From assembly GCA_937894185.1 (NCBI GenBank), contig CALCSA010000485.1, forward strand, positions 1 to 33,916: a stretch of 33,916 nt of DNA, given 5' to 3'. The notes under the pieces were generated by a model. The model did no database searches. It was given only the letters and a program-made list of their open reading frames with translations, and was not told the origin of the DNA. Both the position numbers and the translations under genes were made by a program. This document shows, one piece after another, positions 18,312 through 32,646 of this stretch. Source of the stretch: an uncultured Clostridia bacterium. Lineage in GTDB: Bacteria; Bacillota; Clostridia; Oscillospirales; Ruminococcaceae. How positions within the stretch are numbered: position 1 is the stretch's first letter; each line of letters begins with the position of its first letter.

Positions 18312-19049
18312 ATGAGATACCGGTCCAGCATTACTGCCCATTCCGGTTGTGAGGGAACCCTCAGAGACTCCAGAGAATCCCTGGAAATCGCTTTGCAACT
18401 AAAAGCTGATGCAGTAGAAGTTGATGTGCGCCAAGCTCCCGACGGCACTTTGGTCATTTCTCATGACAGGCAAAGCACTTACCACAATGTTTTAACTCTG
18501 GAGGAAGTCATCGCCCAGGTCGCAGCAAATGGCACTATTCTCCTCAACTGCGATCTGAAAGAGGCCCAAGCTGCTCAGGATGTATTACATATGGCAGGGC
18601 GTTTGGGTCTTTCAGCCGAAAAGCTGATTCTTTCCGGCAGCCTATCTCCTTCTGCGCTGCGGGCTGATCCTGTGATTTCCCGGCATTGCAGCATTTATCT
18701 CAACATTGAGGAACTGCTGGGTGAACTGGTCGGCGTTACACCCCAAGAAAACGGATTGTCCCTTTGGGTGCAGCTGCAGGATAAAATTCAGGATATTTCC
18801 TCTTACCTGCAACCTGTTTCCGGCATTTGCCGCGAGTTGAAGGTGGGGGCGCTCAATCTTCCCTATTTTGCTCTCACGGAACCTTGTTTCAAACTGGTAG
18901 ACGAAATCCCCCTCTCTGTTTGGACTGTTAACGAAGAATCTATGATGCAACATATGTTCCGGCTAGGTGTGAAAAATCTTACCACTCTCAATGTAAGGCT
19001 GGCCATGAAGCAGCGGGAAAGCTTACGGGGGGAACCTGTAGTCCAATAA
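18312..19049 (+). CDS. glycerophosphodiester phosphodiesterase (GDPD)-family protein
   Basis: ITAHSG, AVEVDVRQAPDGTLVISHD, LNCDLK, SVWTVNEE, GVKNLTT; start at ATG 18312 after GAAGGT. Confidence 0.85.
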   Translation: MRYRSSITAHSGCEGTLRDSRESLEIALQLKADAVEVDVRQAPDGTLVISHDRQSTYHNVLTLEEVIAQVAANGTILLNCDLKEAQAAQDVLHMAGRLGLSAEKLILSGSLSPSALRADPVISRHCSIYLNIEELLGELVGVTPQENGLSLWVQLQDKIQDISSYLQPVSGICRELKVGALNLPYFALTEPCFKLVDEIPLSVWTVNEESMMQHMFRLGVKNLTTLNVRLAMKQRESLRGEPVVQ

Positions 19050-19096
19050 CTGTCTAACCGCTTGCACCGGTGTTTTATGATCTCGAAAGGAAGGCG

Positions 19097-19942
19097 ATGT
19101 CCATGAGTTACCTCAATCCCAAGCGCTGGCTGCATATGATGGGCCGTAAAAAATTTGGAGAATTTTTAATTTTAGCTGCATTTATGCTGTTTTTCTATGG
19201 ACCGCTGCTTCACATGTTTATGCTGGCCTTTGCCAACAAGTACGAAATGCCCGGGGTGCTCCCTCAGGAATTCGGCTTTCAGTGGTGGAGATACGTACTG
19301 GCGCAGCCTACTCTGGTCAGCTCCATAGTCCTTTCCTTTACAATTGCCCTGATTACCACCGGGCTTTCCCTGCTAATCTGCATCCCGGCCGCCTACGTGC
19401 TGGCCCGGTATGAGTTCCCCGGACGAAAGCTGGTCATGTTTTCCTTCCTGTTGGGCAATGCGTTCCCAAAGATCGGCATCTATGCTTCCATGGGTATCAT
19501 TTTTTACCGCATCGGCCTGATGGGCACCTTGCCCGGCGTGCTGATCGTCCATCTGCTGGGGGGCATGATGTTGATGATCTGGATGCCCACCAACGCCTTT
19601 AAAAACGTGCCCCGTCAGCAGGAGGAGGCAGCCCGGGACATAGGAGCCGGCCCGATCCGCACTTTTTTCTATGTAACACTGCCCATGGCCTGGCCCGGTA
19701 TCGCAGTGGCCTCTATGTTTACCTTTATCGGCTCCTTGGGGGAAAATCAGGGTACCCTGTTGGTGGGACTTCCCAACTACCGCACTATGCCGGTAGAAAT
19801 GTACGGTGTCATTCTGGATTATCCTGCTACCGCAGGTGCTGTATTTGCCCTGATTCTTCTGATTCCCAATATTCTTCTTCTATTTTTAATGCGCAAATAC
19901 GTAGGCCCCGAAACTCTTTCTAAGGGATTTAAAATGGGCTGA
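19097..19942 (+). CDS. ABC transporter permease (PotC-like)
   Basis: Six hydrophobic segments; EAA loop EEAARDIGAGPIRTFFYVTLP. Confidence 0.92.
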   Translation: MSMSYLNPKRWLHMMGRKKFGEFLILAAFMLFFYGPLLHMFMLAFANKYEMPGVLPQEFGFQWWRYVLAQPTLVSSIVLSFTIALITTGLSLLICIPAAYVLARYEFPGRKLVMFSFLLGNAFPKIGIYASMGIIFYRIGLMGTLPGVLIVHLLGGMMLMIWMPTNAFKNVPRQQEEAARDIGAGPIRTFFYVTLPMAWPGIAVASMFTFIGSLGENQGTLLVGLPNYRTMPVEMYGVILDYPATAGAVFALILLIPNILLLFLMRKYVGPETLSKGFKMG

Positions 19943-19992
19943 CAGATCAGACTCAACCACGAGCACGGATTACAAGAAGCGGGGGTACTAAC

Positions 19993-20982
19993 ATGAGCGG
20001 CAACGCAAAGCTGGAAATTCGGGATTTGACCATGCTCTACAAAACCGGTGATGGTGTGCGCAATATTAACCTAGCGGTGGAGCAAGGGGAACTGGTGACC
20101 CTTTTAGGTCCTTCGGGGTGTGGAAAAACCACCATTTTGCGCACAATCGGAGGCTTTCTTCACGCCGCGTCGGGACAAATTTTAATTAGCGGTAAAGATA
20201 TTACCCACATGCTTCCGGAAAAGCGCCCCACCGCCATGGTATTTCAGAGCTACAACCTTTGGCCTCACATGACGGTTTATGAAAACATGGCTTTTGGGCT
20301 TAAACTGCGCAAAGTTTCCAAAAGTGAACAAAAGCGGCGGATTGCCGAAATGCTGGAAATGATCAAGATGTCCGGTTACGAAAAAAAATATCCCGGGCAG
20401 ATGTCCGGTGGACAGCAGCAGCGCATCGCCATCGGGCGTTCTCTGCTCCTGCAACCCGATGTTCTGCTGCTGGATGAACCTTTTTCGGCGCTGGATGCCA
20501 AAATTCGCTCCCAAATGAGGGAAGAACTGCGCAAAATTCAGACCGACCTGAACATCACCGTGGTCTTTGTCACCCACGATCAGGAGGAAGCCATGGCTCT
20601 CTCCGACCGGATCGTGGTCATGAACAAGGGCTCCTTCGAACAAGTAGGGCCCCCACAAGAAATTTACAATCATCCTGCCAGCCGCTATGTGGCCGATTTT
20701 ATCGGCGAAATGAACTTTATACCCATGCCGGACGGTTCCGCCAAAGCCGTCCGCCCCGAAAATGTCAGTGTTTCTCCCGGTACCGGCGGTAATCTGGATG
20801 GCTATGTCCGCACCATCATGATGCTGGGCCACTATATCGAAATGACGGTCGATACCGATTGCGGCATTGTCAAGCTGTTTGTTTCCGCTGAAGAAGCTGA
20901 GCGGTACAAGCGGGGGGACCCCGTAGCTCTCACCTTTGGGGAGTCCCATCGCTATAACGACGATCAGAGCGCGGCCGGATAA
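19993..20982 (+). CDS. ABC transporter ATP-binding protein (PotA-like, C-terminal TOBE)
   Basis: GPSGCGKT, VFQSYNLWPHMTV, MSGGQQQR, LLLDEP, VTHDQEEA. Confidence 0.96.
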   Translation: MSGNAKLEIRDLTMLYKTGDGVRNINLAVEQGELVTLLGPSGCGKTTILRTIGGFLHAASGQILISGKDITHMLPEKRPTAMVFQSYNLWPHMTVYENMAFGLKLRKVSKSEQKRRIAEMLEMIKMSGYEKKYPGQMSGGQQQRIAIGRSLLLQPDVLLLDEPFSALDAKIRSQMREELRKIQTDLNITVVFVTHDQEEAMALSDRIVVMNKGSFEQVGPPQEIYNHPASRYVADFIGEMNFIPMPDGSAKAVRPENVSVSPGTGGNLDGYVRTIMMLGHYIEMTVDTDCGIVKLFVSAEEAERYKRGDPVALTFGESHRYNDDQSAAG

Positions 20983-21027
20983 CGACGGAATGCACTCTGC
21001 TTATATTGAAAAGGAGGATTACGATTC

Positions 21028-22248
21028 ATGCAAAGGAAAAAAACCTTAGCGCTTTTACTGGTGATCTGCCTGTTTGCCATGATTTTCACTGCTTGTGGCG
21101 GCAGTAGCAGCCCCTCACCTGCTTCCAGCGCAGCATCTCCCGATCCAGCAGCCTCCCCTTCCCCGGCAGCGCCCTCCGCCCCTGCCGAAAAACCTACCGT
21201 AACTCTGTGGACCACCGGTTCCCAGAATCTGTCCGATCTGTTTACCAAGGCCATTGAAGAGTACAATTCGCTTCCCGACGCCAAGTGCAAAATGGAACTC
21301 CAGTTCCTGATGAGCGGCACCGGAGATACCGTTTTGTATGATCGCCTAGCCGCCGCCTTTAAAACCAACCAGACCAAAGATGGCTTTGACATCATTGCGG
21401 AAAACAGCACCTCCCTCTTCAACTACGAGGCGGTGGCTGGAAGTGATGAGCTCTTCCTCCCGGTGGATTTTTCCAAAATCCCCAACTTTGCCAACGTACA
21501 GGTAGAGACTGCCTTCCATAAGGAAAAGTCCGTTCCTTACCGCATTACCACCGTTGTCATGGCTTACGACGAAGAACGCCTGCCCAATCCTCCCAAAACC
21601 TGGGAAGAGTTGGCTCAGTGGGTCAAAGAAAACCCGGGACGTTTTGCCTATAATCCTCCTGCCAGTGGTGGAGCCGGCGGTGCTTTTGTAAAAACTGCCG
21701 TCTATCGCACCCTGCCCAAGGATGCCTGGACTTCCGACGATTCCAAGTGGGTGGAGCAGTGGGGTGCCGGTATGCAGTATCTCATCGATCTGCATCCTCA
21801 CCTTTATTCCTCCGGTGGTTCCGTGGTATATCCTAACAAAAACCAAGGCCCCATCGATCTTTTGATCAACAAGGAAGTGGATATGATCCCCGCCTGGGCC
21901 GACCAAATCATGCAAAATATCAATCAGGGCACCTTGCCTGCCACCACCAAGATGACTAACTTTGATATTCCTTTGGCCGGCACCGATGTAGTCTTTACCT
22001 TCCCGTCTGTGGGCTCCCATCAGGAGGAAGCCTACGACTTCGTTAACTTCATGCTCGGTTCGCAGGGCCAAAAGCTCTGCCTGGAAACCATCTTCGCAGT
22101 TCCTGTGATCGATATTTCCGGTATCGACAGCCCCGCTAAGGCCGCTGTAGAGGACCTGGATATCAGCAATATGTCTATTATCGCTCTGGGTGATTTGGGT
22201 TCCGAGCTCAACGACAAATGGGACGCGGAAATCGCCACCCTGGGCTAA
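21028..22248 (+). CDS. ABC transporter substrate-binding lipoprotein (PotD/YnjB-like)
   Basis: Lipobox FTAC, Ser/Pro/Ala linker, PPKTWEELAQWVKENPGRFAY, EVDMIPAWAD. Confidence 0.9.
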   Translation: MQRKKTLALLLVICLFAMIFTACGGSSSPSPASSAASPDPAASPSPAAPSAPAEKPTVTLWTTGSQNLSDLFTKAIEEYNSLPDAKCKMELQFLMSGTGDTVLYDRLAAAFKTNQTKDGFDIIAENSTSLFNYEAVAGSDELFLPVDFSKIPNFANVQVETAFHKEKSVPYRITTVVMAYDEERLPNPPKTWEELAQWVKENPGRFAYNPPASGGAGGAFVKTAVYRTLPKDAWTSDDSKWVEQWGAGMQYLIDLHPHLYSSGGSVVYPNKNQGPIDLLINKEVDMIPAWADQIMQNINQGTLPATTKMTNFDIPLAGTDVVFTFPSVGSHQEEAYDFVNFMLGSQGQKLCLETIFAVPVIDISGIDSPAKAAVEDLDISNMSIIALGDLGSELNDKWDAEIATLG

Positions 22249-22283
22249 TAAAACGATAGCATACCGTTTCCCTTGCAATGGAA

Positions 22284-22319
22284 AAACAGAGGTGGCTGCC
22301 TGTGCCGCCGCCTCTGTTT
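22284..22319 (+). other. intra-operon stem-loop after the binding-protein gene
   Basis: AAACAGAGGTGGC/GCCGCCTCTGTTT 13-bp stem; could stabilise the mRNA or partially terminate. Confidence 0.65.
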
Positions 22320-22356
22320 ACATCAACCGGGCATGCAGCCGGAAGGAGTATTGGCA

Positions 22357-23208
22357 ATGACCCAAAAAACGTGGAAGACCAATGTGTTTATCGCATGTAT
22401 GCTGCTGCCGGCTCTTATTCTGGCACTAGGTATTATTCTGGTGCCTATGATCAATGTTTTCATCCAAAGCCTTCAGGATGGAAATGGAAATTTCTCATTG
22501 GAGCAGTATTATTTTCTGTTTACAGACAAATTGGCGCTTCAAAACCTATGGTACACCGTATGGATTACTGTGGTAACGGTAGCAGGTGCCATTACAATTT
22601 CTTACCTGCTGGCCCTATACCTGCGTTTTTCCGATTCTAAAATCAGTAAGGTGATTAGCACGGTCTATCTGCTGCCCCGCTTTGTTCCCCATCTGGTAGC
22701 TATCTACGCCATGATGACTGTGGTACGGGATTCCGGTTTTCTCAATCGCCTTTCCCAGTTGTTCGGCTACAATTTTAAACCGGGGCTACTCTACAACGCC
22801 AAGGGAATTATCATGATGAATCTGTGGTTTAACATCGCCTTTGCTACTATGATTATTGTGGCGGCCTTGGCAGGAATTCCAAACTCCATTATCGAAAGCT
22901 CCCGGGATGTAGGTGCCGGCAGAATTTACACTTTTTTTAAAATGGTATTACCCCTGTCCATCAAAGATGTTTTAGTCGCCATGACCTTTATCTTTATGAG
23001 CAACATTAGCTCCTTTACGACCCCTTATATTATCGGCCCTAACCACCCCAAAATGTTTGGAGTGTACCTGCGGGATCAGTTCTCCAAGATGCGGTACGAG
23101 CGGGCGGCAGCGGTATCGGTGCTTATCTTTGCCTTTTCCTCCATATCCGCCATTGTCTATCTATATACCAATCTAAAAGAAAAGGAATGGGAGAAAACCG
23201 GCTTATAG
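22357..23208 (+). CDS. ABC transporter permease (PotB-like)
   Basis: AAGGAG RBS before ATG 22357; six TM segments; EAA-like loop IESSRDVGAGRIYTFFKMVLP. Confidence 0.92.
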   Translation: MTQKTWKTNVFIACMLLPALILALGIILVPMINVFIQSLQDGNGNFSLEQYYFLFTDKLALQNLWYTVWITVVTVAGAITISYLLALYLRFSDSKISKVISTVYLLPRFVPHLVAIYAMMTVVRDSGFLNRLSQLFGYNFKPGLLYNAKGIIMMNLWFNIAFATMIIVAALAGIPNSIIESSRDVGAGRIYTFFKMVLPLSIKDVLVAMTFIFMSNISSFTTPYIIGPNHPKMFGVYLRDQFSKMRYERAAAVSVLIFAFSSISAIVYLYTNLKEKEWEKTGL

Positions 23209-23281: not shown

Positions 23282-23314
23282 GCCGGGGGACTCCATCTAA
23301 TGGAGTCCCCCGGC
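23282..23314. terminator. hairpin between convergent operons (likely terminator)
   Basis: GCCGGGGGACTCCAT-CTA-ATGGAGTCCCCCGGC perfect 15-bp stem. Confidence 0.85.
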
Positions 23315-23360: not shown

Positions 23361-24260
23361 CTAGCACAGGCCGGTTCCCGCCCGCAGCAGGTAGCTTTCG
23401 GTGGGATGTTCCACCCACTGGGTGACCTGCCTGCCGATTTCCATCACGGCATCCAGATCAATGCCGGTGGAAACCCCCATGCGATTCAGCAGGTAGACCA
23501 CATCTTCGGTAGCGATGTTACCTGCGGCACCCGGTACAAAGGGGCAGCCTCCCAATCCGGCAAAGGAGGTGTCGAACCGGGTGACCCCGGCCTCCATAGC
23601 AGCCATCAGGTTGGCGATACCAAGGCCGCGAGTGTTGTGAAAGTGCATCCACCACGTCACCTGAGGGTAGCGCTGCTGCATCTGGGTACACATCCGGTAT
23701 ACCTGATTGGGAACCGCCATCCCCGAGGTATCGGAAAGGGAAATCTCCTCCACTCCAAGGGAAAGGTAGGTTTCCACAATGGCCACGACGTCCTCCAGGG
23801 GAATCTCCGCCTCCCAAGGGGAAGCAAAGGGCATGGAAATAGAGCCGGAAAGGGCAATTCCCGCCGCTTTGGCAGCCTGAGCGCAGGGGGCGAAGCCCTC
23901 CATGCTTTCCTGCGGGGTTTTGTTGAGGTTGGCAAGGTTGTGGGCACGGCTGGCGGAAACATTGAGCTTTACCTTCTTACACCCGCAGGCAGCAGCCCGC
24001 TCCACCCCTTTCAGGTTGGCGATCAGGGCCCGCAGCTCCGCCTTGCTCTCCCCCACTTGGCGGTAGAGCTCGTCGGTATCCGCCAGTTGGGGAACCGCCT
24101 TGGGGCTCATAAAGGAGCCCGGTTCGATGACGGTAAATCCCGCTTCCATCAGCCTTTGGGTCAGGAACAGCTTGCGCTGGGTGGGGAAAAGGGTCTGCTC
24201 ATTTTGCAATCCATCCCGCAGCCCCACCTCACAAAGGGTTACCTGATTCGGCAAATTCAT
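23361..24260 (-). CDS. HMG-CoA lyase-family (DRE-TIM) acyl-CoA lyase
   Basis: EVGLRDGLQNE, SLSDTSG, HFHNTRG, GLGGCPFVPGAAGNIATED. Confidence 0.92.
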   Translation of the reverse strand: MNLPNQVTLCEVGLRDGLQNEQTLFPTQRKLFLTQRLMEAGFTVIEPGSFMSPKAVPQLADTDELYRQVGESKAELRALIANLKGVERAAACGCKKVKLNVSASRAHNLANLNKTPQESMEGFAPCAQAAKAAGIALSGSISMPFASPWEAEIPLEDVVAIVETYLSLGVEEISLSDTSGMAVPNQVYRMCTQMQQRYPQVTWWMHFHNTRGLGIANLMAAMEAGVTRFDTSFAGLGGCPFVPGAAGNIATEDVVYLLNRMGVSTGIDLDAVMEIGRQVTQWVEHPTESYLLRAGTGLC

Positions 24261-24272
24261 AAGAACCGCCTC

Positions 24273-26090
24273 CTATTTGTGGGAAGCGCCGTGAGCCGGC
24301 GTCACGTAGTTTCCATCCACTTTTTTGATCAGCTTGCCCTCCCGCACCAGCTCGCTGGGGCGGTAGATGTCGTTGATGTTCCAGCAGCCCGGAGTGGGCA
24401 CTGGGATGTTTTCCATAGGCACATCAATGAGGCAGGGCTGGCCGCCGGCAATCGCCTCTCTCAGAGCGGGAGCGAAGTCGTCTGCCTTTTCCACCCGCAC
24501 CGACTTCACGCCATAGCCCTTGGCAATGGCAGCCCAGTCGGGGTTATAGGACTTCCCATCGGGAGTGGTGAACAGGGTGCCGAACTGGGTGCCAAAGTTG
24601 GCTTTCTCCAGACCTGCGATGGTTCCAAAGGCGGAGTTGTTCATCACTACCCAGATGACGGGGATGTTCTGCTCCACAGCGGTGGCCAGTACCGAGGGAT
24701 TGGTACCGAAGCCGCCGTCGCCGATCAGGGTGATCACCACTTGATCGGGGGCAGCCAGCTTGGCTCCCAGCACCGCCGCCGAGCCAAAGCCCATGGTGGC
24801 AAGGCCGGAAGGGTGATGGATGGTGCCGGGCACGGTGACGTCAAACTGCTGGGCCACACCGTTTTTGTTCCAGCCCACATCGGTGAAGATAAGAGCGTCC
24901 TCGGGCAGCTCCTGCTTTACATCCCGCAGAATGCGCTGGGGCGTCATGGGGAAGCGGCCGTCGTCACACACTGCCTGATTCTTCGCCTTAAAGTCGGCCT
25001 TGGCCTTGGCGATTTCTTCCCGCAGTCCGGGACGGCGGATGCCTTCCGGCCGGAGCTCCTTCACCGCATCCAGAATCTGAGTCAGCGCCAGCTTGAGGTC
25101 CGCTACCGCCCCAATGGCCACCGGATAGTTCCGGCCGATTTCGCCGGGGTCGATGTCAATTTGCAAGAAGCGGGTGGTGGGCATGTGGAAGGTGACACCG
25201 TCATACCAGCTGGAGCTGTCGGCTTCCGCCAAGCGAGTGCCCAGCGCCAGAATCACATCGGCTTCCAGTGTTTTTTGGTGGGTAAAATCAAAGCCCCAGA
25301 ACCCGGTCTGCCCCAGTAGGAGAGGGTGCCGGTCGGAAACACAGCCCTGCCCCATCAAGGTGCGGGAAATGGGAATATCGCAAAATTCCGAAAGCTCCGC
25401 CAGCTCCCGGGAAGCATCTGCCAGCAGGATGCCGCCTCCTGCATGGAGCACGGGATGCTTAGCTTCCACCAGCTCCCGGGCCATCTCCTTGGCGATGGCG
25501 GGGTCCAGCGCAGGCTTGCCGGTAAAGGAGCTGTCCCGGTGGGTGCGCAGGAACAAGTCCTCCTCAATTTCCCGGGAGAACATATCCATAGGCACCGAAA
25601 TCAGCACAGGGCCGGGGCGTCCGCTTTCCGCCAAACGAAAGGCTTTGTCCAGAATGGAGGGCATGGCCTCTGGGTCGTCGATCCGCCAGGCCCGTTTGAC
25701 AAAGGGCTTGTAGATATCGTACTGGGAGCCGTCGCAGTGCATGTTAACTTCCTGATGGGGGTGACGGCCGTAGTAGTAGCTTGGCACATCCCCGGCGATC
25801 ACTACCATGGGGATGGAATCAAAGGCGGCGTTGGCCACACCGGTGGTGGCGTTGGTCAGCCCCGGCCCCAGATGGCAGAGCACCACGCCGGCCTTCTTTT
25901 TGATGCGGGCGTAACCGTCGGCGGCGGTAGAGGCTACCTGCTCGTGGCGCACCGACACATACTTGATCTTCTCACTGCGGGACAGAGCATCCAGCATGCC
26001 GATGACGGTGTGCCCGCACAGGCCGAAGATATATTCCACACCCCGGCGCTCCAGGTAGTCCACCATCAAATCGGAAAGCAGCTTCTTCAT
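24273..26090 (-). CDS. thiamine-diphosphate-dependent enzyme (ALS/IolD superfamily)
   Basis: RHEQ catalytic Glu, GPGLTNATTG, SGRPGPV, DVG, GLATMGFG, ThDP motif GDGGF...MNN; no ALS small subunit adjacent. Confidence 0.93.
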   Translation of the reverse strand: MKKLLSDLMVDYLERRGVEYIFGLCGHTVIGMLDALSRSEKIKYVSVRHEQVASTAADGYARIKKKAGVVLCHLGPGLTNATTGVANAAFDSIPMVVIAGDVPSYYYGRHPHQEVNMHCDGSQYDIYKPFVKRAWRIDDPEAMPSILDKAFRLAESGRPGPVLISVPMDMFSREIEEDLFLRTHRDSSFTGKPALDPAIAKEMARELVEAKHPVLHAGGGILLADASRELAELSEFCDIPISRTLMGQGCVSDRHPLLLGQTGFWGFDFTHQKTLEADVILALGTRLAEADSSSWYDGVTFHMPTTRFLQIDIDPGEIGRNYPVAIGAVADLKLALTQILDAVKELRPEGIRRPGLREEIAKAKADFKAKNQAVCDDGRFPMTPQRILRDVKQELPEDALIFTDVGWNKNGVAQQFDVTVPGTIHHPSGLATMGFGSAAVLGAKLAAPDQVVITLIGDGGFGTNPSVLATAVEQNIPVIWVVMNNSAFGTIAGLEKANFGTQFGTLFTTPDGKSYNPDWAAIAKGYGVKSVRVEKADDFAPALREAIAGGQPCLIDVPMENIPVPTPGCWNINDIYRPSELVREGKLIKKVDGNYVTPAHGASHK

Positions 26091-26102
26091 CGGTTCTCCC
26101 CC

Positions 26103-26921
26103 TTACAGATCATGTTTTTGCAGATAATCTTTGGCGCTTGCAATGCAGCGGCGCACGTGCTCGGCGTAGCCGAATTCCGCAGCGTTGACCAGATGAGGCA
26201 GTTCGATGCTGCAGGTGGTGTTCTTGGGCATCCGGCTGATGTAGGCCGCCATGTCGATGGCGCCTTCTCCGCAGTAGCGCCTCGCATCCCGGCCGATGAC
26301 AATCAGCTCCTCGCTGGTGTCGGGAATGGCGGCAGGGCCGTCGCACAGGTGGAAGAAGTTAAACCATTCCGGGGGACAGCTTTCCAGCTCCTCCGGTTTG
26401 ACTCGGGAGCGGTGGGCGTGGAGGGTATCCACCATCAGGCCCATATTGCTTCTGTTTACCCCTTCCAGAACCTCTTTGGCCTGAGTCAGAGTGCTGACAC
26501 TGGCTCAGGTGACAAATTCCAGCTGCACTCCCAGGCCGTATTTAGCGGCGAGATCGCAGAGCTCGCCAAACTTTTCGATATAGTAAGGTTTGTTGGAGGT
26601 CCAGATGCTGGAAAGCACAAACTTGGCTCCCAAAGACGCTCCTACTTCCATGGCCGGCTCGTAGCTGCGAAGATCCACCCCTTCCAGAATCCGCATCAAC
26701 TCAATGTCGTGGATGCCGACGCCGGTGGCCTCCATTGCCCGTTTGGTCTGGGCCAGCAACTGAGGCTGGCTGGCCAGATCGTAATTCCCCTCCCCTGCAA
26801 CTCCAAGGTTGACCAGACGGGGGCTGACATAGTCATAGCCGGCCATAGCGGCAATATAAATCAGTTCCGGTGTAGGACACCGCAGCGCGGTAAGGTGAGC
26901 CAGAGAAAATTTGCGCTCCAT
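26103..26921 (-). pseudogene. AP-endonuclease-2/xylose-isomerase-like TIM-barrel protein (dehydratase-like) interrupted by one in-frame TGA at 26505-26507
   Basis: ORFs 26505..26921 and 26103..26444 are in the same frame, joined by ...LEFVT*ASVSTLTQAKEVLEGVNRSNMGLMVDTLHAHR. Metal-ligand pattern EF / DxxH / HLCD / R..GEG / IE is intact over 272 codons. Confidence 0.85.
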
Positions 26922-26948
26922 ATCCTGTTCCTCCTTCGTGGTGGTGTA

Positions 26949-28364
26949 TTATGCCTCAAGGGCGGGATCGTAAAAGCTTCCGAACAGCTCCTTGTTGGAG
27001 GGCATATCCATGGGAATGGGCCGGGAAACCCAGGTGGTGTTCATATAATGCTTGAGGCTGATGTTTTCCGAGACGATATTGCCGCCCCAAGTTCCGCAGG
27101 ACATGGATGAGGTCATGGGCATGCCGTTGGTGGCGGAGCCTGCATTGGCTTTGGACTGGGGCTGCCGCACCATAATCCGGGAGACGGGAGCGGCCAGACC
27201 AAGGCGGTGAATGTGGTCGTCATTAAAGGAGTAGATGCCCACCGAGTGACCTTTTCCGCCAATATCGTAGATTTTCCGCATCATGTCCAGAGCGTTTTCA
27301 AATTCGCCCTCGTATTTATGTACCGCCAACAGGGTGGTGAGCTTCTCTTGGCAAAACTTTTTCTCGGGAGCAATGCCGTTCCCTTCCACAAAGATGAATT
27401 TGCGGTCCTCGGGAATGGTAAAGCCTGCGGCCTGCGCCAGCTTTTGGGGCGGAATGGCCACGGTATCGGACAGGCGGTGGCCCTCTTGATCCCACATCAC
27501 TTTGCCCAGCATTTCCCGCTGGGTGGCGTCGGCAAAGTAGCCGCCTTCCGCCTCCAACTGCCGGAGCACCGCGTCGTAAATGCTGTCGTGAACCACAAGG
27601 TTTCCGTCGGCGGAGCACCCCGAGCCGTAGTCGGAGGTTTTAGAAAGCATGGTGTTGTGGCAAGCTTCCACCACATCGGCGGTCTCATCAAAGATCATGG
27701 TGGCGTTGCCAGCCCCCGAACCGTAGGCCGGGGTTCCGGAAGAGTAGGCCGCCTTGACCATAGGTCTGCCGCCGGTGGCAATGACCAAATCGCTGCATGC
27801 CATCAGAGCATGGGTCATGGGGATGGAGGGCTGGGTGATGCAAAGGAGAATATCCTCGGGGGCTCCCTCTTCTCGCAGGGCCTCCCGCATCATCTCCACA
27901 CATTTGTAGGTGGTCTTTTTGGTGCGGGGATGGGGGCTGAAAATAATAGCGTTCCGCGCCTTGATAGAGTAGACCGCCTGTCCGCCGGGGGTCAGGTCGG
28001 GGTTGGTGGTGGGAACCAGAGAGCCGATGATTCCCACGGGCTTTGCGTATTTGACAATGCCCTTGGCCGGGTCCTCCTCGATAATGCCTACGCTTTTTTG
28101 GCGCAGGGCATCCCGCAGAATCCCCTTAATCTTGCCCCGCTTGTTAAGACGGGATACCGGGTCGCCCAGACCGCCTTCCGCGATGCCCATATCGGTGAGC
28201 ATGGCCCAGGCCTTTTTATTGTAGACCGACCAGGCTACCTTTTGGCAAAGGCGATCAATCCGCTCCTGATCGTAGGTTTCCAAAATCTTTTGCGCTGCCC
28301 GTGCGCGTTCCAACAGCTCATCCAGTTCCCGGGCTTGTTCCGGGGTCATCTCTTTTGTTGCCAT
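26949..28364 (-). CDS. CoA-acylating aldehyde dehydrogenase (AdhE N-domain/EutE/SauS-like)
   Basis: KPVGIIGSLVPTTNP, FSPHP, ATGGRPMVKAAYSSGTPAYGSGAGN, SKTSDYGSGC (catalytic Cys), EKL, GHS, CGTWGGNIVSENI; GGGAGG RBS before ATG 28364. Confidence 0.93.
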   Translation of the reverse strand: MATKEMTPEQARELDELLERARAAQKILETYDQERIDRLCQKVAWSVYNKKAWAMLTDMGIAEGGLGDPVSRLNKRGKIKGILRDALRQKSVGIIEEDPAKGIVKYAKPVGIIGSLVPTTNPDLTPGGQAVYSIKARNAIIFSPHPRTKKTTYKCVEMMREALREEGAPEDILLCITQPSIPMTHALMACSDLVIATGGRPMVKAAYSSGTPAYGSGAGNATMIFDETADVVEACHNTMLSKTSDYGSGCSADGNLVVHDSIYDAVLRQLEAEGGYFADATQREMLGKVMWDQEGHRLSDTVAIPPQKLAQAAGFTIPEDRKFIFVEGNGIAPEKKFCQEKLTTLLAVHKYEGEFENALDMMRKIYDIGGKGHSVGIYSFNDDHIHRLGLAAPVSRIMVRQPQSKANAGSATNGMPMTSSMSCGTWGGNIVSENISLKHYMNTTWVSRPIPMDMPSNKELFGSFYDPALEA

Positions 28365-28433: not shown

Positions 28434-28500
28434 ACTATACCCCATATCTTGAGATAAGAAAAATTGTTATTTCTTATTTAAAGCATAGTTAAATCTTATG
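28434..28500 (-). promoter_or_regulatory. LysR-type promoter module A (catabolic operon)
   Basis: Minus strand: CATAAGATTTAACTATG-6 bp-ATAAGAAATAACAATTTTTCTTAT-14 bp-TATAGT; same layout as modules B and C. Confidence 0.7.
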
Positions 28501-28502
28501 TG

Positions 28503-28967
28503 TCACATCCGCAGACGCATTTCCGGACGGGTAGACTCCTGAAAACCCAGCTGATCGTATAAAGATTTGCCTGCCTGAGTGGCGGTCAGATCAATAGAAT
28601 CCACCCCTAGTTTGCGGGCCTCCTCCACTATACGGCTCACCACCAAAGAGGCGTATCCTTTGCGCCTGTGCTGCGGATCAGTGATGACATTAAGGAGGGT
28701 ACCGGTTTTGCCGGTGGGAAATACCACCGACGCCGGCTTGTTGCAGATTGCCAGATAGGCGGTGGAAACCACGTTTCCATCCACTTCCGCAAAGACCGCC
28801 AGAAAGCTTTTGTCCTCCAGCCCCTGCCAAAAGTAACCGGGAAGCTGGGCCAGAATCTTCTCGCGATCCGAGGGAGAAATCTCCCCGTAATCGGCGGCAA
28901 TGTAGTCCATGCGCAGGCGAACCAGCAGTTCAATGTCTCCTTGATGGGCGGTGCGTATGGCAACCAT
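28503..28967 (-). CDS. GNAT-family N-acetyltransferase
   Basis: AAGGAGG RBS; IRTAHQGD, NVITDPQHRRKGYA (acetyl-CoA motif A), LTATQAGKSLYDQLGF. Confidence 0.92.
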   Translation of the reverse strand: MVAIRTAHQGDIELLVRLRMDYIAADYGEISPSDREKILAQLPGYFWQGLEDKSFLAVFAEVDGNVVSTAYLAICNKPASVVFPTGKTGTLLNVITDPQHRRKGYASLVVSRIVEEARKLGVDSIDLTATQAGKSLYDQLGFQESTRPEMRLRM

Positions 28968-29070: not shown

Positions 29071-29137
29071 CATAGTTAATTCTTATGGTTCGGATAATAA
29101 GAAACAATTTGACTTATATCCATTCAGTGACTATGCT
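29071..29137 (+). promoter_or_regulatory. LysR-type promoter module B (4Fe-4S gene)
   Basis: CATAGTTAATTCTTATG-6 bp-ATAATAAGAAACAATTTGACTTAT-14 bp-TATGCT; contains TTGACT-17-TATGCT. Confidence 0.72.
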
Positions 29138-29259: not shown

Positions 29260-30093
29260 GTGACAGCGTTGGATCTTGATCGAATTGCCGCCGCATTTGT
29301 GGAGTCTTCACCCCTCAACCGTGTTGCCGCCGACAAAGCTCTCCGCCCCGATCTTGTGGGAATGAAGATGCTGGAAGCCCCTATTTTTGGGTTTGCAGCA
29401 GCGGACGATGATTACATTCTCAGCCTGCAGGACAATCCCGGGGCCAACCTAAAGATGGACCCACCCACCTTTTGGCTGGAGGGCGCCAAGACCGTCATCT
29501 CCCTGTTCCTGCCCTTTCCCGATGAGGTAAAGCGCAGCAATCGGCTGGACCGCCAACTGCCCTCTCAGGAATACATGCACTCCCGGGTGGATGGGCAGAC
29601 CTTCATTATCGCTTTGTGCCGCCACCTCAAAGAAGCGCTGGAGACCGAGGGTTATCAAGCCGTCATCCCCGCCGCCGATCCCCGTTTCTGGAGTAACGCC
29701 GCTATCGACAAACATGGCAATGGCATGTTGTTTACCAGCAACTGGTCGGAGCGTCACGCCGCTTATGGAGCAGGGCTGGGCACCTTTTCCCTCAACCGGG
29801 CCCTCATCACTCAAAAGGGGATGTCCGGGCGTTTGGGCAGTCTCATCACCAATTTAGAGCTCCCCTCCACTCCCCGGGCTTACACACAGCTGGAGGAGTA
29901 CTGCATTCTTTGTGGCGCATGTATCGTCTCCTGTCCCGCCGAAGCCATTTCGTTGGACAAAGGGAAGCAGCATCCTCCCTGCAACACTTATCTGGGGGGG
30001 ATTCTGGCGGCCAACCGCCCCTACTACGGCTGCGGAAAATGTCAGGTCTCGGTTCCCTGCGAACATAAAGCCCCTGGCATTCCCACGAGATAG
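29260..30093 (+). CDS. QueG/reductive-dehalogenase-like double 4Fe-4S protein
   Basis: SERHAAYGAGLGTF...GRLGSLIT, CILCGACIVSCP, C...CGKCQVSVPC; GTG start after AAAGGA. Confidence 0.85.
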   Translation: MTALDLDRIAAAFVESSPLNRVAADKALRPDLVGMKMLEAPIFGFAAADDDYILSLQDNPGANLKMDPPTFWLEGAKTVISLFLPFPDEVKRSNRLDRQLPSQEYMHSRVDGQTFIIALCRHLKEALETEGYQAVIPAADPRFWSNAAIDKHGNGMLFTSNWSERHAAYGAGLGTFSLNRALITQKGMSGRLGSLITNLELPSTPRAYTQLEEYCILCGACIVSCPAEAISLDKGKQHPPCNTYLGGILAANRPYYGCGKCQVSVPCEHKAPGIPTR

Positions 30094-30118: not shown

Positions 30119-30185
30119 CATAGTATAAACCAATGGATTAGATAGCTACAAACAATTTGACTTATGTCTCCCATGATATTATACT
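30119..30185 (+). promoter_or_regulatory. LysR-type promoter module C (aroC)
   Basis: CATAGTATAAACCAATG-6 bp-ATAGCTACAAACAATTTGACTTAT-14 bp-TATACT; contains TTGACT-17-TATACT. Confidence 0.7.
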
Positions 30186-30243: not shown

Positions 30244-31422
30244 ATGATGGGAAATACCTTTGGCAAACTGTTTCGCATTACAACCTGCGGTGAATCCTAT
30301 TCCGGATGTTTCCGCAAAAAACCAGGAATTCCCAAAGAGCTTTATGGCGGCCTGCTGGTGATTGTGGACGGCGTCCCTGCCGGAATCAAAATTACCGCCG
30401 AGATGGTACAGGCCGAACTGGACAAGCGTAAACCCGGCCAAACCCCCTTGGATTCCCCCCGTTTGGAAAAGGATATCTGCTACATCTTTTCCGGCGTGAT
30501 GGAAAACGATCTGACCACCGGTGCGCCTGTAGGCATTGTCATCCCCAATAACGATATTGAGGACATCCACGTAGGCCAGTACCGGGATTACAAAGATTCC
30601 ATCCGCCCCGGCCACGCCGAATACTGCTACTTTAAGAAATACGGCGAGTTTACCGACTGGGTGGGTGCGGGACGGGCTTCCGGCCGCGAGACTGCCAGCC
30701 GTGTTGCCGGCGGAGCCGTTGCCAAGCAGGTTCTGGATCAGATAGGGATCGACGTCATCGGATTTATCACCGAATCCCACGGCATCAAGGCAAAGCCTGT
30801 TACTTACGAAGAAGCCAAGAAGAACTACCGGGCCAACGAGCTGAACTGCCCTGATCTGGAAGCTGCCCCCAAGATGATCGAGGACATCCTTAAGGTGAAG
30901 GATTCCGGCGATACCTGTGGCGGTGTAGTGGAGCTGATCATCAAGGGTGTTCCTGCCGGGTTGGGCGAGCCTGTCTTTGACCGTCTGGACGCCACCCTTT
31001 CTCACGCTCTCATGTCTATCGGCGCCATCAAGGGCATCGAATTCGGCGCAGGCTTTGAGGTTGCCCGCATGGCAGGTTCCCAGTGCAACGATGAGTCTTA
31101 TGTAGACCCCGAGACCGGACGGGTCGCTTTCTACACCAACAACGCCGGCGGTGTTCTGGGCGGCATCTCCAATGGAAGCGAAATCCGCATCCGTCTGGCG
31201 GTCAAACCCACCCCCACCGTTTCCGTTCCCCAGAAGGCTGTGGATGTGGAGAAGATGGAGGACGGGATTCTGGAGCCCATCACCCGCCGCGACGCCACCC
31301 TGCTTTCCCGCATTTATCCCGTGTGCGAGGCCATGGCCCGCGTCGCCATTCTGGATGCTCTCATGGCTGCCAACGCCTACCGCTCTGTGACCAATATCGA
31401 TCCTAAATGGGATAAAATCTAA
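30244..31422 (+). CDS. aroC: chorismate synthase-family protein (atypical)
   Basis: GNTFGKLFRITT, TTGAPVG, RPGHA, GRASGRETA, GDTCGG, GLGEPVFDRLD, NNAGGVLGGISNG, KPTPT; GESY replaces GESH. Confidence 0.9.
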   Translation: MMGNTFGKLFRITTCGESYSGCFRKKPGIPKELYGGLLVIVDGVPAGIKITAEMVQAELDKRKPGQTPLDSPRLEKDICYIFSGVMENDLTTGAPVGIVIPNNDIEDIHVGQYRDYKDSIRPGHAEYCYFKKYGEFTDWVGAGRASGRETASRVAGGAVAKQVLDQIGIDVIGFITESHGIKAKPVTYEEAKKNYRANELNCPDLEAAPKMIEDILKVKDSGDTCGGVVELIIKGVPAGLGEPVFDRLDATLSHALMSIGAIKGIEFGAGFEVARMAGSQCNDESYVDPETGRVAFYTNNAGGVLGGISNGSEIRIRLAVKPTPTVSVPQKAVDVEKMEDGILEPITRRDATLLSRIYPVCEAMARVAILDALMAANAYRSVTNIDPKWDKI

Positions 31423-31434
31423 AGGTCATATTCT

Positions 31435-31469
31435 TCCCCCTGTGTCATATCGACATGGGGGGATTTTTT
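31435..31469 (+). terminator. intrinsic terminator after aroC (overlaps the 3' end of the convergent lacI)
   Basis: TCCCCCTGTGTC/GACATGGGGGGA stem followed by TTTTTT. Confidence 0.7.
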
Positions 31470-32572
31470 CCGCCTGGAAGCTTTTCCATGTATGGCATTC
31501 GCTTGACCGCCGTGGAGTTGCGCACAATCAGGTCGGTGCCAATCATCTTGTCCTCCACGTTGCGGCCCCGGAGCATAGCGATCACCATATTCACCGCCGC
31601 ATAGCCGATGTCGTAGGGGAGCTGCCGCACCGAGGTAAGCATCGGCCGGGAAATCCGGGCCACTTCGGTGTTGTCGTACCCCACAATGGATACCTGACCC
31701 GGCACCGAGATGTTTTGTTCCTGCAAAGCCTGCAGCACCCCGGAAGCCACCCAATCGTTGGAGCAGATGACGGCGTCAAACTCGGTCATAGAGGTCAAAA
31801 AACGCTTCATGGAGCTGTATCCGCTGTCGTAATTATAGCTGGTCATGGTCACCAGATTGCGGTCAAAGGGTACCTGCGCTTCCTCCAAAGCCCGCTGATA
31901 ACCTGCCAGACGATCCAGAGAGGAATACGCTCCCCGCTGATCGGAATCCATCAGCTTCATCAGTTCTTCCACATTGGTGGCGGGGTTTTCCCAGAAGCCG
32001 GCAAAAAAGGCAATGCGGCGGTGCCCCTGATGGAGAAGAAACTTAGTGACGGTATAGCCGCCTTCCACGTCATCGGTGTAGACGTGGGGGACGCCCGGGA
32101 TGATACCACGGCGGGAAGCAATGACCACCGGCATTTTTTTGGAAAATACCACATTGAGATGATCCGAACTGGCCACCGAAATGGGGCAGTAAATCAGCCC
32201 GGCAGCGGCGGAAGATGCCACCGAGTATAGGCACTGAATGTCTTTTTCCGCGTTTCCGTCGCTGGAAAAGGCGGTGACGCGGTAGCCCTGCTCTAAAGCG
32301 CAATCCAAAGCCCCGTCTATGATTTTGCCAAAATACTGGTTGGAGGCCGTGGGGACAATCATCCCAAGGATACGGCTGTTTCCGGTGCGCACATATTGGG
32401 CGCTTGCGTTAGGAACATAGCCCAGCTTTTCGATGGTGCTCTGTACCCGGTCCCGAAGCTCAGGGGCAACGCTGGGATTGTTGTTGAGGATTCTGGATAC
32501 CGTGGAAACAGAAACCCCTGCCTCTTTGGCAACATCGGATATGGTGACTTGCTTCATCCTGCTAATATCCAA
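31445..32572 (-). CDS. LacI-family transcriptional regulator
   Basis: VTISDVAKEAGVSVSTVSRILN, YVPNASA, VPGQVSIVGYDN, LTSV, VRNST; start TTG 32572 or ATG 32557. Confidence 0.95.
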   Translation of the reverse strand: MDISRMKQVTISDVAKEAGVSVSTVSRILNNNPSVAPELRDRVQSTIEKLGYVPNASAQYVRTGNSRILGMIVPTASNQYFGKIIDGALDCALEQGYRVTAFSSDGNAEKDIQCLYSVASSAAAGLIYCPISVASSDHLNVVFSKKMPVVIASRRGIIPGVPHVYTDDVEGGYTVTKFLLHQGHRRIAFFAGFWENPATNVEELMKLMDSDQRGAYSSLDRLAGYQRALEEAQVPFDRNLVTMTSYNYDSGYSSMKRFLTSMTEFDAVICSNDWVASGVLQALQEQNISVPGQVSIVGYDNTEVARISRPMLTSVRQLPYDIGYAAVNMVIAMLRGRNVEDKMIGTDLIVRNSTAVKRMPYMEKLPGGKNPPMSI

Positions 32573-32591
32573 CCCACTCCTTTTCGCTGCG

Positions 32592-32626
32592 CGGCGCAGA
32601 AAAGCCGTTTCCTCTTTCCTGCGCCG
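32592..32626 (-). other. stem-loop between aroA and lacI
   Basis: CGGCGCAGGAAAG/CTTTTCTGCGCCG on the minus strand, with no U-tract. Confidence 0.5.
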
Positions 32627-32646
32627 GCATCTTCAAAAAGTATAAT

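What the first reader, a model, noticed from the sequence alone, without database searches (positions are those of the whole stretch)
23361..28364. Candidate undescribed anaerobic ring-cleavage pathway for quinate/shikimate-type cyclohexane acids
Seen: four co-oriented genes 27, 12 and 12 bp apart, encoding a CoA-acylating aldehyde dehydrogenase, an AP-endonuclease-2 TIM barrel, a ThDP enzyme with no ALS regulatory subunit, and a DRE-TIM acyl-CoA lyase. They share a promoter module with aroC and lie near aroA. Established: IolE and AsbF/QuiC are TIM-barrel keto-cyclitol dehydratases; IolD and cyclohexane-1,2-dione hydrolase are ThDP enzymes that open cyclic 1,2-diones (the latter gives an aldehyde-acid); HMG-CoA-lyase-family enzymes release acetyl-CoA from 3-hydroxyacyl-CoAs. 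Inference: 3-dehydroquinate -> (TIM barrel, loss of water) 1-hydroxy-3,4-dioxocyclohexanecarboxylate -> (ThDP hydrolase) homocitrate semialdehyde -> (acylating ALDH) homocitryl-CoA -> (lyase) acetyl-CoA + 2-oxoglutarate. This uses exactly these four activities, needs neither O2 nor aromatisation, and I know of no description of it. The substrate is a hypothesis; another cyclitol or ketocyclohexane is possible.
Basis: partly seen in the sequence, partly recalled or inferred. Interest (0 to 1): 0.85.

Follow-up and report, generated by a model that had tools for sequence, protein, structure and literature searches.

The report
Oxygen-free quinate ring-opening gene cluster
These four genes are the core of a widespread bacterial gene cluster that sits with quinate/shikimate genes and likely breaks open the ring of these plant acids without oxygen and without making an aromatic compound, probably yielding acetyl-CoA and 2-oxoglutarate, although this genome's copy carries a stop codon in one gene.

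Summary
Four co-oriented genes lie 27/12/12 bp apart, with a 3' terminator and a promoter module shared with aroC and a 4Fe-4S gene. The TIM-barrel gene has an in-frame TGA where relatives have TGG. A typical cluster LysR is closest to shikimate-binding QuiR. This genome's shikimate dehydrogenase and aroD map just beyond the window by synteny. Unrelated enzymes fill the same slots: acylating ALDH versus plain ALDH plus CoA-transferase, and HMG-CoA-lyase-like versus citryl-CoA-lyase-like. That points to aldehyde, then CoA ester, then citrate-type cleavage, though independent-pair tests lacked power. Best reading: 3-dehydroquinate to homocitryl-CoA to acetyl-CoA plus 2-oxoglutarate (about 0.6 end to end). 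The TIM step is open: dehydratase, or an IolI-like isomerase with the ThDP enzyme removing the hydroxyl. No enzyme is tested, and six open-literature searches found no description. The scan found this cluster before in five other genomes. New here: the operator box, the isomerase rival, and a clade lacking de novo dehydroquinate synthesis.

The parts
28434..28500 (-). Promoter module of the four-gene operon: LysR-type dyad ATAA-N7-CTAT, AACAATTT..CTTAT block, weak -35 (TTTTCT), 17 nt spacer, -10 (TATAGT)
   Evidence: similar box before the ALDH in L165; reading as a LysR site is inference supported
26949..28364 (-). CoA-acylating aldehyde dehydrogenase (AdhE/SauS-like), 471 aa; Cys250 and His373 invariant in 54 of 54 orthologues
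   Evidence: the ATG at 28445 lies upstream of the -10 box, so 28364 is the likely start
26103..26921 (-). AP-endonuclease-2 / xylose-isomerase-like TIM barrel, 272 codons, interrupted by TGA at codon 139 (26507-26505); Glu135, Asp165 and Glu240 invariant in 54 of 54 orthologues
24273..26090 (-). ThDP-dependent enzyme, 605 aa, GLCGHT...HPHQE subfamily; His27, Glu50, His73, His110, His112 and Gln113 invariant in 40 of 40 aligned
23361..24260 (-). HMG-CoA-lyase-like DRE-TIM acyl-CoA lyase, 299 aa; Arg15, Asp16, Glu46, His206, His208 and Cys239 invariant in 55 of 55 orthologues
23282..23314 (-). Terminator-like hairpin (15 pairs, 11 G-C) closing the operon
29071..29137 (+). Second copy of the promoter module (TTGACT-17-TATGCT) before the 4Fe-4S gene
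29260..30093 (+). 4Fe-4S protein with weak QueG likeness; carries the shared module but has no assigned role
   Evidence: seen only in close relatives
30119..30185 (+). Third copy of the promoter module (TTGACT-17-TATACT) before aroC
30244..31422 (+). Chorismate synthase aroC, the only copy found in the genome
32647..33916 (-). EPSP synthase aroA, running off the window end; by synteny the last-but-one gene of a LysR-SDH-aroD-DASS-ABC run on contigs C189, C233 and C491
31445..32572 (-). LacI-family regulator downstream of aroA; link to the pathway not shown
28503..28967 (-). GNAT acetyltransferase between the operon promoter and the second module; not a recurring neighbour beyond close relatives

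Best explanation
The four genes form one operon that likely encodes the ring-opening half of an oxygen-independent, non-aromatic route for quinate and shikimate, predicted to turn 3-dehydroquinate into acetyl-CoA plus 2-oxoglutarate through homocitryl-CoA. Inferred steps: (1) a transporter imports quinate or shikimate; the shikimate-dehydrogenase-family enzyme oxidises it, and a dehydroquinase brings dehydroshikimate over to 3-dehydroquinate. (2) The metal-dependent TIM barrel removes the C5 hydroxyl as water, giving 1-hydroxy-3,4-dioxocyclohexane-1-carboxylate. (3) The ThDP enzyme hydrolyses the C3-C4 bond, leaving C3 as aldehyde and C4 as acid (homocitrate semialdehyde). (4) The acylating ALDH makes the CoA ester at C3. 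(5) The lyase cleaves at the tertiary alcohol. Net: quinate + CoA + 2 NAD(P)+ -> acetyl-CoA + 2-oxoglutarate + 2 NAD(P)H, which balances by atoms. Shown here: gene identities, intact catalytic residues, operon bounds, shared promoter module, conserved neighbourhood. Every reaction is inferred. In this genome step 2 is likely lost through the TGA unless the stop is an assembly error. I put the end-to-end route at about 0.6 and this exact version at 0.42.
For: Neighbourhood: in 74 GTDB loci (best 80 matches of 401) acylating ALDH 60, HMGL 58, TIM 55, SDH 44, AroD 16, TRAP dctM 28. A shikimate-pathway gene is present in 74 of 96 loci of at least 10 kb over all sets; a rough chance figure for SDH alone is 1.4%. 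Gene order varies. Named hosts span Bacillota, Synergistota, Fusobacteriota, Spirochaetota, Pseudomonadota and Actinomycetota. Slot swaps in 157 loci: acylating ALDH (80) and CoA-transferase (37) co-occur once; 23 of 30 plain-ALDH loci have the CoA-transferase; HMGL (65) and citryl-CoA-lyase-like (53) co-occur once. Thirteen loci pair acylating ALDH with the citryl-CoA-lyase-like gene and no CoA-transferase, so the aldehyde carbon itself would become the thioester. On the ThDP tree these labels change at least 8 and 4 times. Cluster LysR L050 has QuiR (5TED) as best PDB match, E 8e-30; QuiR uses shikimate as co-inducer (bioRxiv 2025.04.08.647683, passages). The box ATA[AG]-N7-[CT]TAT lies upstream in 10 of 17 LysR-adjacent operons (1.3 expected) and 0 of 17 IclR ones. 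The TIM model is closest to Lmo2234 (Z 30.6) and 5HMQ (Z 28.4), and a QuiC-like split gene fills the slot in Azoarcus KH32C. CDH has the highest query TM-score of the listed rows, 0.84. No intradiol dioxygenase domain in 0 of 10 cluster genomes.
Against: No biochemical, growth or expression data; no RNA run was listed. IolI ties with Lmo2234 in the profile search (7.5e-18 versus 1.2e-16) and nearly in structure (Z 29.5), and ranks first by Foldseek. TIM, cupin or QuiC-N is present in only 70 of 96 long loci. The proposed dione could lose its C1 hydroxyl and aromatise to protocatechuate (chemical inference). Independent-pair tests of the swaps were not significant (median p 0.25 to 1, too few pairs). 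By sequence and E-value the ThDP enzyme is nearer BbmA, AHAS and glyoxylate carboligase than CDH. The lyase passes the HMG-CoA lyase subfamily cut-off. The box pattern was chosen, where a weight matrix scored only 1 of 17. The LysR of this genome's own clade is not QuiR-like. The TIM gene here is broken and is the only copy found.
Confidence: 0.42

Rival explanations
1. Same start and end, different middle. The TIM barrel (or the cupin that replaces it) is an IolI-like isomerase that moves the ketone from C3 to C4. The ThDP enzyme then adds at C4, cleaves C3-C4 to release C3 as aldehyde, eliminates the C5 hydroxyl from the enamine and hydrolyses the acyl-ThDP. The product is again homocitrate semialdehyde, an isomer of 3-dehydroquinate, and no aromatisable dione is formed.
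For: IolI is the top sequence and Foldseek match and second by VIA-align. TIM and cupin never co-occur (77 versus 12 loci) and take the same place after the ThDP gene. An isomerase would be easier to lose, as the shift can run uncatalysed. It fixes the aldehyde on the acetyl arm without further assumption. Benzaldehyde lyase, Xsc and carboxyethylarginine synthase give in-family precedent for the cleavage and elimination (mechanisms recalled; family links).
Against: Arg211 and Trp139 match the QuiC-type barrel 5HMQ and not IolI in the printed alignments. A QuiC-like barrel fills the slot in L081. I recall no single enzyme that does all three ThDP steps. The Atlas search gave the cupin no clear function.
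Confidence: 0.2
2. The substrate is quinate or shikimate, but the ThDP enzyme cleaves the acyloin of 3-dehydroquinate directly, or the ring opens with other regiochemistry. The lyase then yields acetyl-CoA plus a different C5 oxo-acid, and the TIM barrel acts later or is an ordinary dehydroshikimate dehydratase making protocatechuate as a side route.
For: Many loci lack TIM and cupin. Variant clusters end differently: a split transketolase with a racemase-like gene and no ALDH (L015, L027, L031), or CoA-transferase with ApbA-like and MaoC genes (L095, L125, L127, L131, L142). Listeria makes protocatechuate that it cannot use (bioRxiv 2025.04.08.647683, passages).
Against: The common architectures have exactly one aldehyde-oxidising step and no gene for a further C5 aldehyde. 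The TIM gene is embedded in the operon in 43 of 49 long GTDB loci. No intradiol dioxygenase in 0 of 10 genomes tested.
Confidence: 0.2
3. The cluster degrades a related but different cyclitol acid (a quinate isomer, deoxy- or acylated quinate), and the shikimate-dehydrogenase-family gene is a paralogue with shifted specificity.
For: Most cluster SDHs score below several equivalog cut-offs. A Zn-dependent dehydrogenase is present in 19 loci. The TRAP binding protein gave no ligand clue. An alpha/beta-hydrolase (esterase-like) gene occurs in 3 loci.
Against: AroD (32 loci) and AroQ (15) pass their cut-offs in the representatives tested and act on dehydroquinate; aroK, aroA and aroC recur; the LysR is QuiR-like; the operon shares its promoter module with aroC.
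Confidence: 0.13
4. Housekeeping reading: acetolactate synthase plus HMG-CoA lyase and acetaldehyde dehydrogenase that happen to lie near aro genes.
For: AHAS models are the best NCBIfam hits, and no other AHAS large subunit was found in this 82% complete genome. The lyase passes the HMG-CoA lyase subfamily cut-off.
Against: Score below every AHAS cut-off shown. The AHAS motifs AYPGGA and TDAFQE are replaced by invariant GLCGHT and RHPHQE. A canonical AHAS over the cut-off exists elsewhere in 8 of 10 cluster genomes, with the small subunit next to it in several and never at the cluster. No leucine-degradation genes recur.
Confidence: 0.03

Closest known systems
myo-Inositol catabolism (IolG dehydrogenase, IolE dehydratase, IolD ThDP hydrolase; PMC9430895, passages)
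   Same: Same inferred logic: oxidise a cyclitol to a ketone, process it with an AP-endonuclease-2 barrel, open the ring with a ThDP enzyme, no oxygen needed.
   Different: The ThDP enzyme scores 246 bits on the IolD model (cut-off 715). The TIM gene is not among the IolE-model hits. No IolB or IolC recurs. Downstream is ALDH plus acyl-CoA lyase, and partners are shikimate-pathway genes.
Cyclohexane-1,2-dione hydrolase (CDH, Azoarcus; PDB 2PGN, 4D5G)
   Same: Same fold, highest query TM-score among listed rows (0.83-0.84); His27 likely corresponds to CDH His28 (register, mutant named in the 4D5G title). Its aldehyde-acid product is recalled.
   Different: Only 25% identity; ranked far below BbmA and AHAS by sequence. 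I obtained no residue-level alignment with CDH.
Hydroaromatic pathway (quinate/shikimate dehydrogenase, dehydroquinase, dehydroshikimate dehydratase QuiC/QuiC2/AsbF, then beta-ketoadipate)
   Same: Same entry enzymes, a related TIM barrel, and a QuiR-like LysR.
   Different: That route aromatises to protocatechuate and needs an oxygenase. Here none was found in 10 genomes, and ThDP, ALDH and lyase genes are added. The barrel scores 23 bits on the QuiC model against a cut-off of 1200 (C-terminal half).
Fermentation of quinate and shikimate by Ilyobacter insuetus and Propionivibrio limicola (Brune et al. 2002, seen only as cited in PMC10512730 and PMC2822220; the 1992 statement that no aromatic intermediate occurs is recalled)
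   Same: A physiology that needs such a route. The predicted 2-oxoglutarate fits acetate plus propionate (Propionivibrio products per PMC2822220) or butyrate (recalled). The full cluster occurs in the family of L039, a Fusobacterium record.
   Different: Neither species appeared among named hits (top 120 each), so the link is untested.
HMG-CoA lyase and citryl-CoA lyase (retro-Claisen lyases of 3-hydroxyacyl-CoAs)
   Same: All catalytic and metal residues kept; the two unrelated families replace each other in the cluster.
   Different: The predicted substrate homocitryl-CoA is not reported for either in my searches.

Membership tests
Biosynthetic acetohydroxyacid synthase (AHAS) | Score over the TIGR00118 cut-off | tested here: not met
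   393 bits versus 538
Biosynthetic acetohydroxyacid synthase (AHAS) | Substrate-loop motifs (A/G)YPGG and DAFQE | tested here: not met
   GLCGHT and RHPHQE instead, invariant His27, His110, His112
Biosynthetic acetohydroxyacid synthase (AHAS) | Regulatory small subunit encoded next to it | tested here: not met
   TIGR00119 matches lie elsewhere in 9 of 10 genomes, none at the cluster
IolD (trihydroxycyclohexanedione hydrolase) | Score over the TIGR04377 cut-off and iolB/C/E context | tested here: not met
   246 bits versus 715; no iolB or iolC among recurring neighbours
Cyclohexane-1,2-dione hydrolase | Fold and active-site histidines | tested here: inconclusive
   TM 0.83-0.84 at 25% identity; His27 likely equals His28; no residue-level alignment obtained
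Cyclohexane-1,2-dione hydrolase | Hydrolysis of a cyclic 1,2-dione | not testable with these tools
   needs an assay
IolE (myo-inosose-2 dehydratase) | Match to TIGR04379 | tested here: not met
   the window gene is not among 5 weak hits in the genome; structural Z 23.9, well below the top three
Dehydroshikimate dehydratases (AsbF, QuiC, QuiC2) | Three metal-binding carboxylates (AsbF Glu142, Asp172, Glu253; PMC9324987, passages) | tested here: met
   Glu135, Asp165 and Glu240 invariant in 54 of 54; these are shared by the whole barrel family and do not decide the reaction
Dehydroshikimate dehydratases (AsbF, QuiC, QuiC2) | Family model score, or clear nearest neighbour | tested here: inconclusive
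   far below the cut-off of the two-domain QuiC model; Lmo2234, IolI and 5HMQ lie within about 2 Z units; Lmo2234 = QuiC2 and 5HMQ = QuiC1 are recalled
IolI (inosose isomerase) | Nearest relative and iol context | tested here: inconclusive
   top or second match at 21-23% identity; no iol context
HMG-CoA lyase subfamily | Score over the NF004283 cut-off; Arg-Asp, Glu, His-x-His, Cys | tested here: met
   310 bits versus 246; residues invariant in 55 of 55
HMG-CoA lyase subfamily | Specificity for HMG-CoA, leucine-degradation context | tested here: inconclusive
   no such genes recur; specificity needs an assay
Acylating sulfoacetaldehyde dehydrogenase SauS | Score over the NF047625 cut-off | tested here: not met
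   438 bits versus 600; orthologues 469 and 477
CoA-acylating aldehyde dehydrogenases (AdhE type) | Catalytic Cys and His in the AdhE register | tested here: met
   Cys250 and His373 align with AdhE and are invariant in 54 of 54
Aerobic hydroaromatic / beta-ketoadipate route | Intradiol ring-cleavage dioxygenase in the genome | tested here: not met
   PF00775 in 0 of 10 cluster genomes, control positive in 5 of 14; extradiol families not searched

The most novel reading that the evidence does not exclude
This is the genetic basis of oxygen-independent, non-aromatic quinate/shikimate breakdown: a pathway present in at least six phyla, including common oral and gut Fusobacterium, that opens 3-dehydroquinate with a new ThDP enzyme subfamily and cleaves homocitryl-CoA to acetyl-CoA and 2-oxoglutarate. 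In the boldest form the ThDP enzyme alone performs ring cleavage, elimination and hydrolysis on the 4-keto isomer.
Probability: 0.6. Interest if true: 0.85.

Novelty: new variant of a known kind. Interest (0 to 1): 0.76.

Why it matters
Quinate and shikimate are abundant plant acids. The textbook breakdown goes through protocatechuate and needs oxygen, yet specialist fermenters of these acids have been described since at least 2002 (cited in PMC10512730 and PMC2822220), and I found no genes assigned to them in the open literature searched. This cluster gives named genes, predicted intermediates with masses, and cultured strains to test. The ThDP subfamily is large: 6443 of 7999 scored candidates at E <= 1e-200 (a threshold that was not checked against neighbourhood for each), usually labelled acetolactate synthase or ThDP-binding protein. 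A confirmed route would correct many annotations, add homocitryl-CoA cleavage as a catabolic reaction, and bear on plant-acid turnover in guts, digesters and sediments.

Tried and rejected
Recoded genome (TGA=W): rejected, TGA ends 398 of 1357 long ORFs. Whether the TGA is real or an assembly error could not be settled. No run holds more than 0.14 of the words, the only contigs covering the codon are 90-95% relatives, and 44 difference rows were not shown. No RNA holder was listed, which is no evidence either way. My first view that the repeat served only plus-strand genes (note) was wrong; the third copy was found later. A weight matrix from the three boxes did not pick out distant promoters (4 of 54 at p <= 0.05). 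Independent-pair tests were not significant. The careful tree did not finish; FastTree was used. A residue-level alignment with CDH could not be obtained. The TRAP binding protein gave no ligand. The Atlas gave only generic cupin clusters and did not answer for the TIM barrel. A QuiR-like LysR was not found in this clade with query L050. TIM-less metagenome loci could not be searched as whole genomes, so a TIM gene elsewhere in those genomes is not excluded. A recalled small-subunit motif scan is weak and is replaced. Literature: searches found no description of the route (one search listed 9 and one search listed 1 unrelated paper; one search listed 20 of 28 hits, none relevant by title). The library lacks most subscription journals, and Brune 2002 was not held. 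I read no supplements; fitness or transcriptome tables there could bear on the novelty claim.

Full report
OBSERVATION. Families are an aldehyde dehydrogenase of the acylating type, an AP-endonuclease-2 barrel, a three-domain ThDP enzyme and an HMGL-like lyase. Catalytic residues are intact: ALDH Cys250 and His373, lyase Arg15, Asp16, Glu46, His206, His208 and Cys239, ThDP Glu50. The TIM gene has TGA at codon 139. The genome uses TGA as a stop (398 of 1357 long ORFs), three close relatives have TGG, Trp is the residue in 42 of 54 orthologues, and the stop falls between two conserved metal ligands. This copy is therefore dead or mis-assembled; it is the only copy found in the genome, and source reads were not available. 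A terminator-like hairpin closes the operon.

PROMOTER MODULE. The repeat search showed two plus-strand copies, before the 4Fe-4S gene and before aroC. A third lies on the minus strand before the ALDH. A pattern built from the three hits only these sites in the 2.2 Mb assembly (circular for the hits, informative for the absence elsewhere). Each copy has a dyad, a conserved AACAATTT..CTTAT block overlapping a -35, and a -10 at 17 nt. The core ATA[AG]-N7-[CT]TAT lies upstream in 10 of 17 operons with a divergent LysR (1.3 expected from shuffles), 0 of 17 with IclR and 3 of 20 others. That pattern was chosen after a weight-matrix test that scored only 1 of 17, so it is suggestive and not independent. 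One cluster LysR has QuiR as best PDB match; passages of bioRxiv 2025.04.08.647683 say QuiR uses shikimate as co-inducer. The LysR of this genome's own clade is 22-28% identical to the others and not QuiR-like, so the regulator here is not settled.

BEYOND THE WINDOW. Aligning relatives to the assembly orders contigs C189, C233, C491 and the window's right end: LysR, shikimate dehydrogenase, aroD, a DASS-like transporter, a peptide-type ABC system, aroA. So the entry enzymes likely lie within about 10 kb of aroA; this is synteny, not a contig join. G000, G007, G008 and G009 (82-96% complete) gave no match for DHQ synthase, DHQ synthase II or either DAHP synthase, while 10 of the other 11 same-genus genomes have DHQ synthase, one only as a fragment. 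They keep one SDH and one aroC. This suggests that the ring is taken from outside. Against a simple salvage story, no shikimate kinase of either class was found in these four. They are close kin and count as about one event.

NEIGHBOURHOODS. I fetched 74 GTDB loci (best 80 of 401 matches), 3 from the plasmid collection and 80 metagenome loci (best 80 of 182). ORF clusters were named by NCBIfam or Pfam on representatives, then all loci were labelled with profiles built from those clusters (L075-L080 left out as duplicates of close relatives). In the GTDB set: acylating ALDH 60 of 74, HMGL 58, TIM 55, SDH 44, dctM 28, AroD 16; a shikimate-pathway gene in 42 of 49 loci of at least 12 kb. Over 96 loci of at least 10 kb: a lyase 81, an ALDH 78, any shikimate-pathway gene 74, TIM, cupin or QuiC-N 70, SDH or Zn-dehydrogenase 61, a dehydroquinase 38. 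Many loci are short or near-duplicates. The ThDP gene is patchy: 4 of 14 same-genus genomes and none of 26 more distant relatives, and 7 of 110 genomes in the family of L039; the three of those seven that I cut out all carry ALDH, ThDP, SDH, TIM and HMGL. Named proteins of the subfamily include Aromatoleum, Castellaniella, Priestia and several Fusobacterium species; for those records I did not see the neighbourhood.

WHAT THE SWAPS SAY. Acylating ALDH (80 of 157 loci) and family III CoA-transferase (37) co-occur once. A non-acylating ALDH goes with the CoA-transferase in 23 of 30. HMGL (65) and a citryl-CoA-lyase-family gene (53; over the PRK06224 cut-off in 3 of 3 tested) co-occur once. TIM (77) and a cupin (12) never co-occur. 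All four activation-by-lyase combinations exist. The simplest reading is that the ThDP product is an aldehyde, that it becomes a CoA ester in one step or two, and that a citrate-type retro-Claisen follows. No hydratase lies between in the main architectures, so the tertiary alcohol is already present, which points to dehydroquinate and not dehydroshikimate. The labels change at least 8 and 4 times on a FastTree of 123 ThDP proteins chosen for having a label. On 91 unselected loci the independent pairs nearly always went the predicted way when they differed, but were too few for significance.

THE ThDP ENZYME. It is not AHAS: below cut-off, substrate loops replaced by invariant histidines, canonical AHAS elsewhere in 8 of 10 cluster genomes, no small subunit at the cluster. 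PMC3534367 (passages) notes Phe-Gln as the majority at standard positions 114-115; here it is His-Gln. It is not IolD either. The model (pLDDT 83) matches BbmA, AHAS and glyoxylate carboligase best by E-value and CDH best by query TM-score. This allows ring hydrolysis but does not show it.

THE TIM BARREL. The profile and the model (pLDDT 93) place it among Lmo2234, IolI and 5HMQ, above IolE and AsbF. The three AsbF-type metal carboxylates (PMC9324987, passages) are kept. That Lmo2234 is QuiC2 and 5HMQ is QuiC1 is recalled; the preprint passages place QuiC2 in the operon next to lmo2233. Two chemistries lead to the same product. A dehydratase gives the 3,4-dione, which ThDP hydrolyses as CDH and IolD do. 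An isomerase gives the 4-keto form, on which ThDP could cleave, eliminate and hydrolyse. I favour the first about two to one, because a QuiC-like barrel fills the slot in Azoarcus KH32C and Trp139 and Arg211 match the QuiC-type barrel.

KNOWN OR NEW. It works like the first half of inositol catabolism but fails the IolD and IolE tests, and its second half has no iol counterpart. It shares entry enzymes with the hydroaromatic pathway, but 0 of 10 cluster genomes had an intradiol dioxygenase. Seven searches of the open library found no description; subscription papers and supplements were not seen. Specialist fermenters of quinate and shikimate are cited in PMC10512730 and PMC2822220 (passages); that their route avoids aromatic intermediates is recalled from Brune and Schink 1992, which I could not read. 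The scan's earlier notes reached the same reading in five other genomes. They are not independent evidence, and I had stated my reading before the look-up.

VERDICT. Real, conserved and apparently undescribed. Quinate/shikimate as substrate about 0.85; acetyl-CoA plus 2-oxoglutarate through homocitryl-CoA about 0.6; the exact dione version 0.42. New variant of a known kind; interest 0.76. This genome's own copy is a poor test object because of the stop codon.

Noticed in passing
G000, G007, G008, G009; window 30244-33916: This clade keeps aroA, aroC, aroD and SDH but gave no match for DAHP synthase, DHQ synthase or shikimate kinase of either class. AroA needs shikimate 3-phosphate, so either an unrecognised kinase exists or the genes are missing from four assemblies.
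   Followed up: partly
window 29260-30093: A 4Fe-4S protein with weak QueG likeness has its own copy of the promoter module, so it seems co-regulated with aroC and the operon; role unexplained.
   Followed up: partly
L015, L027, L031: Variant cluster: ThDP, TIM, SDH and an Nramp-like transporter, with divergent LysR, Asp/Glu-racemase-like gene, split transketolase and aroD, and no ALDH. Suggests another fate for the ring-opened product.
   Followed up: partly
L095, L125, L127, L131, L142 (ApbA also in L162): Variant with CoA-transferase, ApbA-like reductase, MaoC dehydratase, SDH and AroQ; three of these lack both lyases and both ALDHs.
   Followed up: partly
L096, L100, L102, L105-L107, L109, L117, L128, L137, L152, L153: A 140-aa Cupin_2 protein follows the ThDP gene where other loci have the TIM barrel; the Atlas gave no function.
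   Followed up: partly
L082, L083, L112-L114, L148, L156, L163: PQQ-dependent dehydrogenase-like genes near the cluster, most in loci without SDH; possible alternative entry dehydrogenases.
   Followed up: no
P0259, P0276, P0298, P0328, P0329: The ThDP subfamily is common in records named Fusobacterium nucleatum, polymorphum, animalis, canifelinum and simiae, at 82-83% identity to L039.
   Followed up: partly
window 16975-23208: LacI regulator divergent from a GDPD-like gene and an ABC transporter, with a 23-nt inverted pair at 18155-18177 / 18249-18271 that looks like two operators. Separate from the finding; convergent with the operon.
   Followed up: no
window 1-16732: Housekeeping stretch: pyrC over its cut-off at 15476-16732; by eye only, rpoB 5' end (1-1359), P-type ATPase (3140-5893), tyrosine recombinase (6100-7119), recG (9751-11826), metA (12036-12944), sfsA (13833-14525).
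   Followed up: no
G041: Three copies of the TIM subfamily in one genome, one with an internal TAA; L019 and L021 are two ThDP copies in one genome, one without the usual partners.
   Followed up: no
L006, L032, L072, L055: A peptide-type ABC system, in some with PrpD-like genes, lies beside the cluster in several Clostridia, as does the ABC run upstream of aroA here; substrate unknown.
   Followed up: no
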